Virus genome (UHGV): UHGV-0354001
DNA: 39,506 nucleotides
Origin: a virus
Strand: one strand, 5' to 3'
Made by a program: the position numbers
Part shown: one piece after another, positions 33,001 through 36,000 of the stretch
How the letters are laid out: each line of letters starts with the position of its first letter
How positions within the stretch are numbered: the stretch's first letter is position 1

Positions 33001-36000
33001 CCTGTGCCGGGTGGTCTGCGCGGGTCGGGATGTTGCGCGTTGAGTTCAGCGCGGAGTTTAAGCAGGTGGTGAACTGATGCAGGATATTCGCGAAGAAAGT
33101 CTGAACGAGTCGGTTAAGTCAGAGCAGTCACCGCGGGTGGTACTCTGGGAAATCGACCTGACGGTACAGGGTGGTGAGCGGTATTTTTTCTGTAATGAGC
33201 TGAATGAAAAAGGGGAGCCGGTCACCTGGCAGGGGCGTAAGTATGAGGCATACCCGATTGACGGCAGCGGCTTTGAGATGAACGGCCGGGGCAGCAGTGC
33301 CAGACCGTCGCTGACGGTGTCCAATCTGTTCGGTCTGGTCACCGGGATGGCGGAAGACCTGCAGAGTCTGGTGGGGGCCACGGTGGTCCGCCGCCGGGTG
33401 TATGCCCGTTTTCTGGATGCGGTGAATTTCGTTGCGGGCAATCCGGAGGCGGACCCGGAGCAGGAGCTGAGTGACCGCTGGGTGGTGGAGCAGATGTCGC
33501 AGCTGACAGCCATGACGGCCTCGTTTGTGCTGGCCACACCGACCGAGACGGACGGGGCGCTGTTTCCCGGTCGCATCATGCTGGCGAACACCTGTATGTG
33601 GGATTACCGGGGAGATGAATGCGGGTATAACGGTCCTGCGGTGGCGGATGAGTTCGACAACCCCACCACGGATATCCGTAAGGACAGATGCAGCAAGTGC
33701 ATGCGCGGGTGTGAGATGCGCGGCATGGTGGCTAATTTTGGCGGTTTCCTTTCCATTAACAAACTTTCGCAGTAAATCCAATGACACAGACAGAATCAGC
33801 GATTCTGGCGCATGCCCGGCGGTGTGTGCCTGCGGAGTCGTGCGGCTTAGTGGTGAGAACGCCGGAGGGGGAGCGGTATATCCCTTGTGTGAATATCTCT
33901 GCAGAGCCGGAGGCGTATTTTCGTATTGCACCGGAAGACTGGCTGCGGGCAGAGATGCAGGGGGAGATTGTGGCACTGGTCCACAGTCATCCCGGTGGGC
34001 TGCCCTGGCTGAGCGAGGCTGACCGGCGGCTGCAGATAAAAAGCGCACTGCCCTGGTGGCTGGTCTGCCGGGGTGACATTCACAAATTCCGCTGCGTGCC
34101 GCACCTGACGGGACGGCGCTTTGAGCACGGGGTGACGGACTGTTACACCCTGTTCCGGGATGCATACCATCTGGCGGGGACTGAAATGCCGGATTTTCAT
34201 CGCGAGGATGACTGGTGGCGCAACGGTCAGAACCTTTACCTGGACAATATGGCGGTCACCGGCTTTTACCGGGTGCCCCTGTCCTCTGCACAGGCGGGCG
34301 ATATTCTGCTGTGCTGCTTTGGTGCTTCGGTACCGAACCATGCCGCCATTTACTGCGGCAACGGTGAGCTGCTTCACCATCTGCCTGAACAACTGAGTAA
34401 ACGGGAGAGGTATTCCGAAAAATGGCAACGACGAACGCATTCTGTCTGGCGTCACCGCCACTGGCACGCATCTGCCTTCACGGGGATTTGCAACGATTTG
34501 GCCGCCGCCTCAGCCTGTATGTGAACACGGCAGCGGAAGCCATTCGCGCCCTGTCGATGCAGATGCCGGGCTTTCGCCGTCAGATGAACGAAGGCTGGTA
34601 CCAGATACGTATTGCCGGTGATGACACGGCACCGGAGGCGGTGTATGCCCGTCTTCACGAACAGCTGGGTGAGGGAACGGTCATCCACATTGTGCCGCGA
34701 CTGGCCGGGGCCGGAAAGGGTGGACTGCAGATTGTGCTGGGGGCGGCAGCCATCGTGGGCTCTTTCTTCACGGCCGGAGGCTCGATGGCGTTATGGGGTA
34801 CAGCCCTGAGTGCCGGTGGTTTTTCTGCCACCACGATGCTGTTTTCACTGGGTGCCAGCATGATACTGGGCGGAGTGGCCCAGATGCTGGCCCCGAAGGC
34901 AAAAACACCGGATTACCGCGCAACGGATAACGGCAGACAGAACACGTACTTTTCCTCGCTGGATAACATGATTGCCCAGGGGAACCCGATGCCGGTGCCT
35001 TACGGGGAAATGCTGGTTGGCTCCCGCCGTATATCCCAGGACATCAGCACCCGTGATGAAGGCGGGGGCGGAAAGGTCGTGGTTATCGGGCGGCAGGGGT
35101 AAAAAGAATAAAAAAATCCCGCAGTGATCGCGGACAGGAACTGCGGGAGAGTTACGAAGATTAAGTGTAAGGAATTATTCTTATATCACGACAAAAAAAT
35201 TAACGCAGAGAAATTATACGCGCCACAGTCAGTTTGTGAAAATGTGAAGATATTCAGAATTTTTATGCCATTACCGGTTTTAACCAACAGGATTATCGGT
35301 GGGCATGAAAGAAAACCCCGGTATCTGCTGATACCGGGGTTTCTCTTTAGCATGGCAGAAATGTGTTTCATGCTTTTCGGGCGAAGGATATCCGACTTCT
35401 GTACGGAATGGCAAGTGGCGGTTAATTTATTCAGGGGAAGGCTGTATGGGAAAAGGTGGCGGTAAGGCACACACGCCTCGTGAGGCGAAGGATAATCTCA
35501 AATCCACGCAGATGATGAGTGTGATTGATGCGATTGGTGAGGGACCGATAGAAGGTCCGGTGAAGGGACTGCAGAGTATTCTGGTGAACAAAACCCCGCT
35601 GACGGACACGGACGGTAATCCCGTGATACACGGTGTGACTGCGGTCTGGCGTGCCGGGGAGCAGGAGCAGACACCACCGGAAGGCTTTGAGTCCTCCGGA
35701 GCTGAAACCGGACTGGGCGTGGAAGTGACGAAGGCAAAACCGGTGACGCGCACCATTACGTCCGCGAACATTGACCGCCTGCGGGTTACCTTCGGGGTGC
35801 AGTCACTGGTGCAGACCACGTCAAAGGGCGACCGTAATCCTTCCTCTGTCCGGATTCTGATTCAGTTACAGCGTAATGGCCGCTGGGTGACGGAAAAGGA
35901 TGTCACCATTAACGGCAAGACCACCTCGCAGTTCCTGGCCTCGGTGATTCTGGATAATCTGCCGCCCCGGCCCTTTAACATCCGGATGGTCCGGGAGACG

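What the first reader, a model, noticed from the sequence alone, without database searches (positions are those of the whole stretch)
35103..35445. 343-bp non-coding insert between tail genes I and J with two strong hairpins
In lambda, I and J are closely spaced. Here an AT-rich spacer holds an 8-bp-stem hairpin (35117-35149) and a perfect 12-bp-stem hairpin (35320-35350) that has T-rich tails on both strands. ORFs predicted across it lack RBSs and cross the hairpins. It could encode a small RNA ending at the hairpin, a transcriptional attenuator regulating J, or a remnant of a mobile insertion.
Basis: seen in the sequence. Interest (0 to 1): 0.5.

Follow-up and report, generated by a model that had tools for sequence, protein, structure and literature searches.

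The report
Prophage PasB-type small RNA gene
The gap between tail genes I and J holds, on the opposite strand, a divergent copy of the known prophage small regulatory RNA PasB (EcOnc22-24 in O157) with its own promoter and terminator, plus a second strong two-way terminator hairpin of unproven role, so most of it is explained by a known kind of element.

Summary
There is a 343-bp spacer (35103-35445) between gpI and gpJ, where lambda has 60 bp, and it contains two non-random hairpins.

Hairpin 1 (35117-35148) is not a plus-strand element. It is the Rho-independent terminator of a minus-strand sRNA gene, about 35206 to 35110. The gene has a near-consensus sigma-70 promoter (TTCACA-16-TATAAT) and a U7 tail. 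It belongs to the PasB family:
- The published PasB northern probe matches 20 of 23 bases.
- E2348/69 PasB lies in the same I-J slot.
- A covariance model built only from other alleles hits the window once (64 bits, E 4e-11).
- Sakai EcOnc22/23/24 map to the same slot once a 135-nt coordinate offset is corrected.

The window allele is about 74% identical to both reference alleles. It differs in the stretch that complements the PasB RIL-seq partners, so different targets are predicted.

Hairpin 2 (35313-35342; extended palindrome 35303-35354) lies in a 200-bp block that is at least 99% invariant. It looks like a bidirectional terminator upstream of the PasB promoter. Whether it also ends a second minus-strand RNA is untested.

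In relatives the same slot carries minus-strand sodC. It is therefore an antisense moron site.

The parts
34422..35102 (+). Tail assembly gene I (context; its stop codon lies 8 nt from the sRNA 3' end)
   Evidence: ORF list; Pfam PF06805 Lambda_tail_I, E 1.8e-16
35110..35206 (-). PasB-family sRNA gene. The primary transcript is predicted to run from about 35206 to about 35110 (about 97 nt). The mature 5' end may be near 35192, by homology to the 83-nt E2348/69 annotation.
   Evidence: A covariance model built from other alleles hits 35110-35205 (-), 64 bits, E 4e-11, the only hit in the window. The PasB northern probe matches + strand 35115-35134 at 20/20 of its first 20 nt (sequence). Alignments to E2348/69 PP6 and Sakai Sp15/Sp11.
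35110..35148 (-).
   Evidence: Terminator scan, minus strand. Inverted repeat I2. The 7-bp core stem CCCGCAG/CUGCGGG is invariant in 13 alleles while the loop varies in sequence and length. Fold z -4.1.
35156..35177 (-). Single-stranded body holding the putative seed. Conserved UCC (35171-35173), a variable core UUACAC, then the family-conserved UUAAUCUUC (35164-35156). 35164-35175 is the counterpart of the E2348/69 stretch ACUCCUUCACAU.
   Evidence: Allele alignments. Sliding-window duplex test against six RIL-seq partner fragments of E2348/69 PasB: only nt ~29-46 is enriched, z about -6.
35213..35240 (-). Sigma-70 promoter of the sRNA: -35 TTCACA (35240-35235), 16-nt spacer, -10 TATAAT (35218-35213)
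   Evidence: Promoter scan, 11/12 match. The -10 is retained as TATAAT/AATAAT/TATCAT in most alleles.
35243..35262 (-). Invariant A/T-rich upstream element with the dyad TCTGA-N6-TCACA (CRP-like). Its role is inferred only.
   Evidence: Conserved in all promoter-bearing alleles. Variation is confined to the 6-nt spacer and the one non-consensus position. Read directly from the sequence.
35263..35445 (.). J-proximal block ('module 2'), nearly invariant and always found at this junction. It replaces a ~95-bp block with an unrelated hairpin in the 234-250-bp spacer type.
   Evidence: At least 99% identical in 1444 of 1451 E. coli records, with no diverged relatives. Spacer typing.
35303..35354 (.). 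Hairpin 2: 13-bp perfect stem (35313-35325 / 35330-35342) within a ~22-bp imperfect palindrome, with A-tract and U-tract on both strands. A bidirectional intrinsic-terminator-like element.
   Evidence: z -6.8 on + and -7.5 on -. Deleted in L074 between short direct repeats, leaving the rest intact.
35385..35414 (-). Weak candidate promoter (TTGCCA-18-TATCCT). It could drive a ~75-nt minus-strand RNA ending at hairpin 2. Speculative.
   Evidence: Promoter scan, 9/12 (shuffles give 0.8 such sites per kb). Fold of 35300-35445 on the minus strand, z -3.2. No expression evidence was found.
35434..35448 (+). gpJ ribosome-binding site GGGGAAGG and ATG (35446)
   Evidence: Sequence; ORF; Pfam

Best explanation
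The I-J spacer is a non-coding moron slot. Its I-proximal ~160 bp (35103-35262) is a self-contained gene on the minus strand for a PasB-family, Hfq-type trans-acting small RNA.

Anatomy (shown from the sequence and from homology):
- An invariant A/T-rich upstream element.
- A sigma-70 promoter, TTCACA-16-TATAAT.
- A start near 35206.
- An unstructured body of about 60 nt carrying the seed.
- A 9-bp terminator hairpin plus U7, ending at 35110, 8 nt from the stop codon of I.

Behaviour (inferred from the E2348/69 and Sakai alleles):
- It is transcribed from the repressed prophage, independently of and opposite to late transcription.
- It is stabilised by Hfq.
- It base-pairs with host and virulence mRNAs.

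The pairing stretch sits in a short hypervariable core between conserved flanks, so this allele is predicted to have its own target set.

The J-proximal 200 bp carries a strong bidirectional terminator hairpin. It most likely insulates the sRNA promoter and gene J from read-through in either direction when Q antitermination is absent (inferred).
For: Promoter and terminator:
- A minus-strand promoter (11/12) and a minus-strand terminator lie 97 nt apart.

Homology to PasB:
- The PasB probe AATCCCGCAGTGATCGCGGAGCT matches the + strand at 35115-35134.
- PasB of E2348/69 (minus strand, 1466343-1466261, 83 nt) lies between 'tail assembly protein' and gpJ.
- The promoter, core and terminator align with the window.
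- Model R1, built without window-type alleles, gives one hit at 35110-35205 (-), 64 bits, E 4e-11.

Link to EcOnc22/23/24:
- The Hfq-CRAC peaks of EcOnc22/23/24 (about 85 nt on northern, destabilised in delta-hfq) fall on the homologous sRNA body in Sakai Sp11, Sp14 and Sp15.
- This holds after correcting a +135 offset, which was verified with AsxR and two HnrS copies.

Published behaviour of PasB:
- It is strongly Hfq-dependent (log2FC -6.8 and -2.4 in delta-hfq) and has 37 RIL-seq partners.

Structure and distribution:
- The consensus structure is the terminator stem only, with a single-stranded body.
- The family module occurs in 1847 of 5426 complete E. coli genomes.

Seed:
- Only nt ~29-46 of E2348/69 PasB is enriched for complementarity to six partner fragments, z about -6.

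The slot:
- In relatives it carries sodC on the same minus strand.
Against: - No expression data exist for this allele or this strain.
- The window allele is only ~74% identical to the characterised alleles.
- No Rfam model covers the family.
- The promoter-predicted length (~97 nt) exceeds the 83-85 nt reported for relatives, so the 5' end is uncertain or processed.
- The -35 hexamer used here is not conserved in the Sakai and L061 allele classes, so promoter architecture may depend on the upstream dyad.
- The seed inference rests on six partner fragments from one condition and on a different allele.
- The role assigned to hairpin 2 is inference only. It did not pass the simple terminator scan on either strand, because part of each U-tract is in the stem.
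Confidence: 0.82

Rival explanations
1. The minus-strand RNA acts mainly in cis. It is perfectly complementary to the I-J intercistronic part of the late tail mRNA. It could trigger RNase III cleavage or block ribosomes, limiting J (or I) expression from leaky late transcription in lysogens or tuning the I:J ratio during lytic growth.
For: The gene is always antisense to the tail operon and always sits at the I-J junction, in 33 distinct spacers. Its 3' end abuts the I stop codon.
Against: The characterised allele forms Hfq-dependent chimeras with unlinked host and virulence mRNAs (ftsZ, ler, galE, bfpB, bfpI, perB). These are complementary to one short stretch. sodC occupies the slot in the same orientation, so orientation is a property of the slot, not proof of antisense function. 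The sRNA does not overlap the J RBS, which is more than 220 nt away.
Confidence: 0.15
2. Module 2 is a second non-coding moron. A ~75-nt minus-strand RNA starts near 35378 from the weak promoter TTGCCA-18-TATCCT and ends at hairpin 2 (U-tract to about 35304). This would give a tandem array of two sRNA genes.
For: A promoter-like site lies on the minus strand, 32-61 nt from the J start, at the place where the sodC promoter sits in sodC-type spacers. Hairpin 2 has its better U-tract (UUUUCUUUC) on the minus strand. One natural variant (L051) keeps pairing as U.G on the minus strand only. The predicted RNA folds better than shuffles, z -3.2. In the 903-bp spacer the hairpin at the same relative position is the minus-strand terminator of sodC.
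Against: A 9/12 promoter match is expected by chance at about 0.8 per kb. No Hfq-CRAC peak is listed for the Sakai Sp12 copy of this block. No Rfam hit. The block is almost invariant, so conservation gives no test. L074 lost the hairpin by deletion.
Confidence: 0.2
3. The hairpins act on the plus strand as attenuators or processing sites in the late mRNA. They would control how much transcription or stable message reaches J. The ~22-bp hairpin 2 could be an RNase III site.
For: Hairpin 2 folds at -30.8 kcal/mol on the plus strand with a UUUCUCUUU tail. In the short spacer type, the unrelated hairpin at the same place has its U-tract only on the tail-sense strand. Its variable pair is C-G, U-A or U.G on that strand but C.A on the other.
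Against: Hairpin 1 has no U-tract on the plus strand. From established knowledge of lambdoid phages, late transcription is Q-antiterminated and reads through intrinsic terminators. No plus-strand promoter was found in the spacer. The sRNA promoter, terminator and homology explain the I-proximal half without any plus-strand role.
Confidence: 0.15
4. The spacer encodes a small protein (113 aa on +, 94 aa or shorter on -).
For: Open frames exist.
Against: No Pfam match. The frames run through both hairpins and through the sRNA promoter. Related spacers differ by indels that are not multiples of three and by replacement of whole blocks. No convincing RBS (sequence).
Confidence: 0.02

Closest known systems
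PasB (E2348CN_0006), an Hfq-dependent sRNA of EPEC E2348/69 prophage PP6 (Pearl Mizrahi et al. 2021, PMC8550237; Zhu, Shabalina and Storz 2026, bioRxiv 10.64898/2026.05.13.724894)
   Same: Same slot between tail genes I and J, same antisense orientation, near-identical promoter region, the same terminator stem CCCGCAG/CUGCGGG plus U7, a conserved UCC...UU(A/G)AUCUUC core, and a single-stranded body.
   Different: About 74% identity over the RNA. The longest exact match is 27 nt, below the 28-nt BLAST word used in the published survey. That survey reports only variants with 'a few nucleotide differences'. The stretch complementary to the PasB partners (ACUCCUUCACAU) reads AUUCCUUACACU here. The terminator loop is 5 nt longer. 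The window also has the extra 200-bp block that E2348/69 lacks.
EcOnc22 / EcOnc23 / EcOnc24 of EHEC O157:H7 Sakai prophages Sp15, Sp14 and Sp11 (Tree et al. 2014, PMC4104026; targets listed as unknown in Sy and Tree 2021, PMC7873438)
   Same: Hfq-bound, about 85 nt, destabilised without Hfq. After the +135 coordinate correction, the peaks lie on the homologous sRNA body in the I-J spacer, antisense to the tail genes.
   Different: A different allele class (about 74% identity; core AUAACG instead of UUACAC; -10 AATAAT; no conserved -35). Spacer of 240 bp, with a tail-sense terminator hairpin instead of module 2. The papers I read do not link EcOnc22-24 to PasB: Table S6 of the 2021 paper lists no EHEC homologue for PasB.
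sodC morons of lambdoid and Stx phages (for example Stx2_EH2201, LC567829)
   Same: They occupy the same I-J slot on the same minus strand, with their own promoter next to the J start and their own terminator.
   Different: Protein-coding cargo. In 848-851-bp spacers sodC replaces the PasB promoter. In 903-bp spacers it sits upstream of an intact PasB gene.
Anti-sRNAs AsxR and AgvB, and HnrS, of EHEC prophages
   Same: Short Hfq-binding prophage sRNAs with a conserved 3' scaffold and variable pairing region (AsxR/AgvB). They are moron-like genes expressed from lysogens.
   Different: Different loci: downstream of pR' and the stx moron site for AsxR/AgvB, and downstream of Rz for HnrS. No sequence or Rfam match in the spacer. 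An AsxR-like gene is present elsewhere in this window.

Membership tests
PasB family of prophage sRNAs | Sequence and structure homology to characterised members | tested here: met
   Model R1, built from 8 alleles that exclude the window class (E2348/69 PasB, PasB-2, EcOnc22 type, L061 type), gives a single full-length hit at 35110-35205 (-), 64 bits, E 4e-11. Pairwise identity is 74%.
PasB family of prophage sRNAs | Location between tail assembly gene I and tip gene J of a lambdoid prophage, transcribed opposite to them | tested here: met
   Window genes identified by Pfam. E2348/69 coordinates and annotation. The same arrangement in Sakai Sp11, Sp12, Sp14 and Sp15 and in 33 IMG/VR spacer variants.
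PasB family of prophage sRNAs | [quoted passage not shown] | tested here: met
   The stem is invariant in 13 alleles with variable loops. No compensatory changes were seen, so support comes from conservation, not covariation.
PasB family of prophage sRNAs | Own promoter directly upstream | tested here: met
   An 11/12 sigma-70 match. The upstream element and -10 are conserved across alleles. Activity was not measured.
PasB family of prophage sRNAs | Detected as an ~83-85-nt RNA whose stability depends on Hfq | not testable with these tools
   Shown only for the E2348/69 allele and for Sakai EcOnc22.
PasB family of prophage sRNAs | Same pairing (seed) sequence as E2348/69 PasB | tested here: not met
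   The stretch enriched for complementarity to PasB partners (ACUCCUUCACAU) reads AUUCCUUACACU in the window. Duplex energies of the window allele with the EPEC partner fragments are near background. This argues for a different target set, not against family membership.
Rfam-curated sRNA families (AgvB RF02702, AsxR RF02703, Esr41, IsrK and others) | Covariance-model score at or above the gathering threshold | tested here: not met
   The best hit in 34900-35700 is 27.3 bits against a gathering score of 48, from an unrelated Streptococcus family matching only the hairpin.
HnrS (EcOnc10-12) | 66-nt sRNA downstream of the lysis genes whose seed pairs with the hha RBS | tested here: not met
   HnrS maps downstream of Rz in Sakai Sp9 and Sp12. 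The PasB alleles show no specific duplex with the hha RBS.
Phage moron (Juhala et al. 2000, cited) | Extra DNA between conserved phage genes with its own promoter and factor-independent terminator | tested here: met
   Lambda has 60 bp here and the window has 343 bp with a promoter and terminator. The cargo is interchangeable among close relatives. Expression from the lysogen is inferred from the PasB and EcOnc22 data.
Transcriptional attenuator of gene J | Terminator hairpin plus U-tract on the sense strand, downstream of a promoter and subject to a regulatory alternative | tested here: inconclusive
   Hairpin 1 has no sense-strand U-tract. Hairpin 2 has a moderate sense-strand U-tract. No sense promoter or alternative structure was found.

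The most novel reading that the evidence does not exclude
The I-J junction of lambdoid prophages may be a dedicated antisense slot for regulatory RNA, with two layers.

First, the PasB/EcOnc22 family may be a 'cassette' sRNA. A fixed promoter, Hfq scaffold and terminator would carry a short hypervariable pairing core that is swapped among prophages. Each allele, including this one (present at >=99% identity in 633 genome records), would then reprogram a different set of host mRNAs.

Second, in the 343-bp spacer type the slot may also hold a further, undescribed ~75-nt minus-strand RNA ending at the 13-bp hairpin.
Probability: 0.2. Interest if true: 0.45.

Novelty: new member of a known kind. 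Interest (0 to 1): 0.3.

Why it matters
About a third of complete E. coli genomes (1847 of 5426, up to 9 copies each) carry this unannotated module. The 343-bp spacer form is found in ST131, O157:H7 and the reference strain Seattle 1946. The characterised alleles bind Hfq and contact ler, ftsZ and bfp/per mRNAs.

Three practical consequences follow:
- EPEC PasB, EHEC EcOnc22-24 and the allele here are one family at one fixed phage slot. That allows consistent annotation, and an Rfam model could be built.
- The alleles appear to differ exactly in the pairing core. This gives a testable route to allele-specific host rewiring by otherwise similar prophages.
- The junction between two essential tail genes is flagged as a moron site that accepts only antisense cargo.

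None of this overturns current understanding. It mainly extends a known sRNA family.

Tried and rejected
- **Rfam at permissive thresholds.** Only chance matches to the hairpins.
- **svsR of prophage NC-SV.** It lies at the 3' end of cI, not here.
- **HnrS.** It lies downstream of Rz. Its AAUCUUCU seed resembles the conserved PasB motif, so I tested pairing with the hha RBS. There was no specific duplex. In the RIL-seq rows I could see (only the first two of eight hha rows were displayed), hha pairs with PasC, and no hha-PasB row matched the phrase search.
- **AgvB/AsxR.** They sit at the pR' moron site. No match in the spacer.
- **PasA, PasC, PasD.** They lie near the Q, holin and lysis genes.
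- **Coding potential of the two spanning ORFs.** No Pfam match, and the frames are not conserved.
- **Origin of module 2.** No diverged relatives in E. coli genomes. No similarity to the sodC-type spacers. The hairpin-2 stem occurs with other loops only in unrelated phage contexts, which are chance matches.
- **In-window trans targets of the conserved motif.** None beyond chance.
- **Search of species-representative genomes for the family signature.** True hits were found only in Escherichia albertii and in short contigs attributed to unrelated taxa. The other pattern matches are unrelated terminators.
- **Published MEME target motifs.** They exist for PasA and PasD1/D2 but not PasB.
- **EcOnc22-24 at hairpin 2.** I first read the EcOnc22-24 coordinates as lying on the second hairpin. 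That was an artefact of a 135-nt offset between genome versions.
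Full report
**1. Check of the observation**

The window is a lambdoid E. coli prophage. Rfam finds DicF, sok, three tRNAs, STnc100 and an AsxR-like gene in it, and the late genes are all on the + strand. The ORF at 34422-35102 is a Lambda_tail_I protein. The ORF at 35446-39138 has the GpJ FNIII-A and Phage-tail_3 domains. The 343-bp gap is therefore real. Lambda has 60 bp at the same junction.

Both hairpins exist:
- Hairpin 1 has 9-bp arms at 35117-35125 and 35140-35148.
- Hairpin 2 has 13-bp perfect arms at 35313-35325 and 35330-35342.
- Hairpin 2 extends to a ~22-bp imperfect palindrome, about -30 kcal/mol on either strand, and no shuffle of 200 folds as well.

The spanning ORFs have no Pfam match.

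**2. What hairpin 1 is**

A consensus scan puts a near-perfect sigma-70 promoter on the minus strand: TTCACA at 35240-35235, a 16-nt spacer, and TATAAT at 35218-35213 (11/12). It also puts a minus-strand terminator at 35134-35118 followed by T7. On the plus strand, hairpin 1 is preceded by an A-run and has no U-tract. The unit is therefore a ~97-nt minus-strand transcript running from about 35206 to 35110.

The literature search led to the Pas sRNAs of EPEC. Table S6 of Pearl Mizrahi et al. gives PasB as NC_011601.1, minus strand, 1466343-1466261, 83 nt, with northern probe AATCCCGCAGTGATCGCGGAGCT. That interval lies between the 'tail assembly protein' (ends 1466255) and gpJ (starts 1466496) of prophage PP6. 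The first 20 nt of the probe are identical to the window + strand at 35115-35134, which places the RNA on the minus strand.

Alignment of the two spacers shows near-identity of the promoter region and the terminator, with a more diverged body. A covariance model built from eight alleles, none of the window's class, finds exactly one hit in the 39.5-kb window: 35110-35205 (-), 64 bits, E 4e-11.

**3. Link to EHEC**

Tree et al. list EcOnc22, EcOnc23 and EcOnc24 (Sp15, Sp14, Sp11). They are about 85 nt by northern and are destabilised without Hfq. Read naively, their coordinates fall on the J-proximal part of the 240-bp I-J spacers.

I checked the coordinate frame. AsxR and two HnrS copies lie 135 nt higher in NC_002695.2 than in the 2014 table, at 1.27, 1.78 and 2.23 Mb. 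With that correction, the three peaks cover GAUGCCUGAAAAAUAACUCCAUAACGUUAAUCUUCAUCGUUCUCUCCCGCAGCUCCGCUAA, which is the body of the homologous sRNA.

A 2021 review still lists the targets of EcOnc22-24 as unknown. The 2021 PasB table gives no EHEC homologue. I found no paper among those I read that equates them. Sakai Sp12 also carries an E2348/69-type PasB together with the 343-bp spacer type.

**4. Family anatomy**

Eighty IMG/VR loci with a gpI 97-100% identical to the window's gave 33 distinct I-J spacers. Across at least five allele classes the following are conserved:
- an upstream A/T-rich element (AATAAAAATTCTGAATATCTTCACATTT);
- a -10 (TATAAT, AATAAT or TATCAT);
- a UCC motif;
- the motif UU(A/G)AUCUUC;
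- the 7-bp stem CCCGCAG/CUGCGGG;
- the U-tail.

The 5' third, a 6-7-nt core between UCC and UUAAUCUUC, and the terminator loop vary. RNAalifold keeps only the terminator stem, and the body is single-stranded. There are no compensatory changes, so the stem is supported by invariance amid variable surroundings, not by covariation.

The window allele is 74% identical to both E2348/69 PasB and EcOnc22. Its longest exact match to PasB is 27 nt. The published survey used a 28-nt word and reports only near-identical PasB variants. This allele class was therefore probably not counted there. In complete E. coli genomes the module occurs in 1847 of 5426 genomes, up to 9 copies each, and is never annotated. 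The window allele is present at >=99% identity in 633 records.

**5. How it probably works**

Shown for relatives: PasB is among the most connected accessory sRNAs in EPEC (37 partners). It drops 100-fold without Hfq and is higher in LB at non-activating conditions.

From the RIL-seq table I took the activating-condition partners bfpB, bfpI, ftsZ, galE, ler and perB. I fetched those fragments and slid 14-nt windows of E2348/69 PasB over them. Only nt ~29-46 (AACAACUCCUUCACAUUG) pairs better with the real fragments than with shuffles, z about -6. An example is ler UUGUGAAGGAC. The family-conserved GAUCUUCAU does not stand out, z about -1. This is an inference from six fragments, and several sites lie in the 30-nt flanks of the chimera coordinates.

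The corresponding stretch is the most variable part of the family:
- UUCACA in PasB;
- UUAACA in PasB-2;
- UUACAC in the window;
- AUAACG in Sakai;
- CUGUGG and CUAUAG in other alleles.

The window allele pairs with the EPEC fragments only at background level. My reading is a fixed promoter, Hfq scaffold and terminator around an exchangeable pairing core. I therefore predict allele-specific targets, and the window allele's own targets are unknown.

**6. The rest of the spacer**

The region 35245-35445 is at least 99% identical in 1444 of 1451 E. coli records, and no diverged relatives are detectable. It combines freely with different PasB alleles: L025 has E2348-type PasB plus this block, and L018 has window-type PasB plus the short block. 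It is always next to J. The same stem with other loops occurs only in unrelated phages.

In the short spacers, an unrelated hairpin sits at the same relative position: CAGGCA(C/U)CC...GG(G/A)UGCCUG. Its U-tract is only on the tail-sense strand. Its variable pair is C-G, U-A or U.G on that strand but C.A on the other. In the 903-bp spacers, the hairpin at that position is the minus-strand terminator of sodC.

Some terminator therefore always separates the PasB promoter from J. In the window it is symmetric, with an A-tract and a U-tract on both sides. I read it as a bidirectional insulator (inferred).

A second minus-strand RNA, driven from the 9/12 promoter at 35414-35385 and ending at hairpin 2, is possible but unsupported. 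No EcOnc peak is listed at the Sakai Sp12 copy, and the promoter match is at chance level.

**7. The slot**

In Stx2_EH2201 and several IMG/VR contigs, the junction carries a Cu/Zn superoxide dismutase gene on the minus strand. In some it replaces the PasB promoter (848-851 bp). In others it lies upstream of an intact PasB gene (903 bp). All cargo seen at this junction is transcribed opposite to the tail operon. This fits the moron concept of a promoter, cargo and terminator expressed from the prophage.

**8. Verdict**

The feature is a divergent member of the known PasB/EcOnc22-24 sRNA family, plus a bidirectional terminator block of unproven role.

It is of modest interest. The useful new points are:
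- the unification of PasB with EcOnc22-24;
- the allele-variable pairing core;
- the antisense-only moron slot;
- the unexplained invariant 200-bp block.

Noticed in passing
window 35243-35262 (minus strand): An invariant dyad TCTGA-ATATCT-TCACA lies within AATTCTGAATATCTTCACATTT. It matches the CRP consensus at 14 of 16 non-spacer positions. Across alleles, changes fall only in the 6-nt spacer or at the one non-consensus base. It is centred about 44.5 bp upstream of the predicted start, 3 bp off the classical class II position. PasB being higher in LB than in glucose-rich DMEM would fit CRP control, but this is a lead only. The -35 hexamer at 35240-35235 is not conserved in the Sakai and L061 allele classes.
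   Followed up: partly
L006 (phage Stx2_EH2201) 401-1251; L034, L062, L065, L069, L073: A Cu/Zn superoxide dismutase gene (sodC) sits in the I-J spacer on the strand opposite to the tail genes. In the 848-851-bp form, the PasB body and terminator remain but the PasB promoter is replaced by the sodC 3' end and its terminator. There the sRNA could only arise by read-through, by processing, or from a weak internal -10.
   Followed up: partly
L001 1900-1996; L003, L004, L009 and the short-type IMG/VR spacers: The 234-250-bp spacers carry a different hairpin upstream of J. Its U-tract (UUGUUUUU) is on the tail-sense strand. One stem pair varies as C-G, U-A or U.G on that strand but is C.A on the other. 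This suggests a sense-strand terminator directly in front of gene J.
   Followed up: partly
Tree et al. 2014 Table S2 versus NC_002695.2 (L002, L005, L010): EcOnc peak coordinates in the 2014 table are 135 nt lower than in the current Sakai RefSeq record. I checked this at 1.27, 1.78 and 2.23 Mb. Used uncorrected, they place EcOnc22-24 on the wrong element.
   Followed up: yes
L074 and L112 (IMG/VR): L074 has lost 48 nt, including hairpin 2, apparently between short direct repeats (..CATTTCT.. / ..GTTTTCTTTCATG..). L112 has the end of an IS element (transposase 3' end) immediately next to hairpin 2, in place of the PasB side of the spacer.
   Followed up: no
window 14579-14843, 3177-3228, 9358-9538, 14254-14500: Other RNA genes are present in the prophage. 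STnc100 (131.7 bits) is convergent with an AsxR-like gene that scores exactly at the gathering threshold (63 bits). There are also DicF, a sok antitoxin RNA and three tRNAs. The AsxR/STnc100 pair is the arrangement described downstream of stx2 in Sakai (L005).
   Followed up: no
L096, L100, L101 (genome contigs): Full-length PasB-family hits (49-97 bits) lie on very short contigs assigned to Parendozoicomonas haliclonae (460 bp), Streptomyces flavalbus (3.4 kb) and a Clostridiales MAG (3.4 kb). These are probably E. coli prophage contamination in those assemblies. Escherichia albertii has two genuine copies (L098, L104).
   Followed up: partly
window 35180-35188 (minus strand): An extended -10-like TGaTATAAG lies inside the 5' part of the sRNA. 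It is present only in the window-type alleles, and reads TGaCATAAG in some. It lacks the T at hexamer position 6, so it is probably inactive. If it were active, it would give a ~64-nt isoform.
   Followed up: no
Pearl Mizrahi et al. Table S3 versus HnrS: In EPEC RIL-seq, the tomB-hha intergenic region (the hha RBS) forms chimeras with PasC. This is the same target reported in 2026 for the EHEC sRNA HnrS, so PasC and HnrS may be related or convergent regulators of hha.
   Followed up: no
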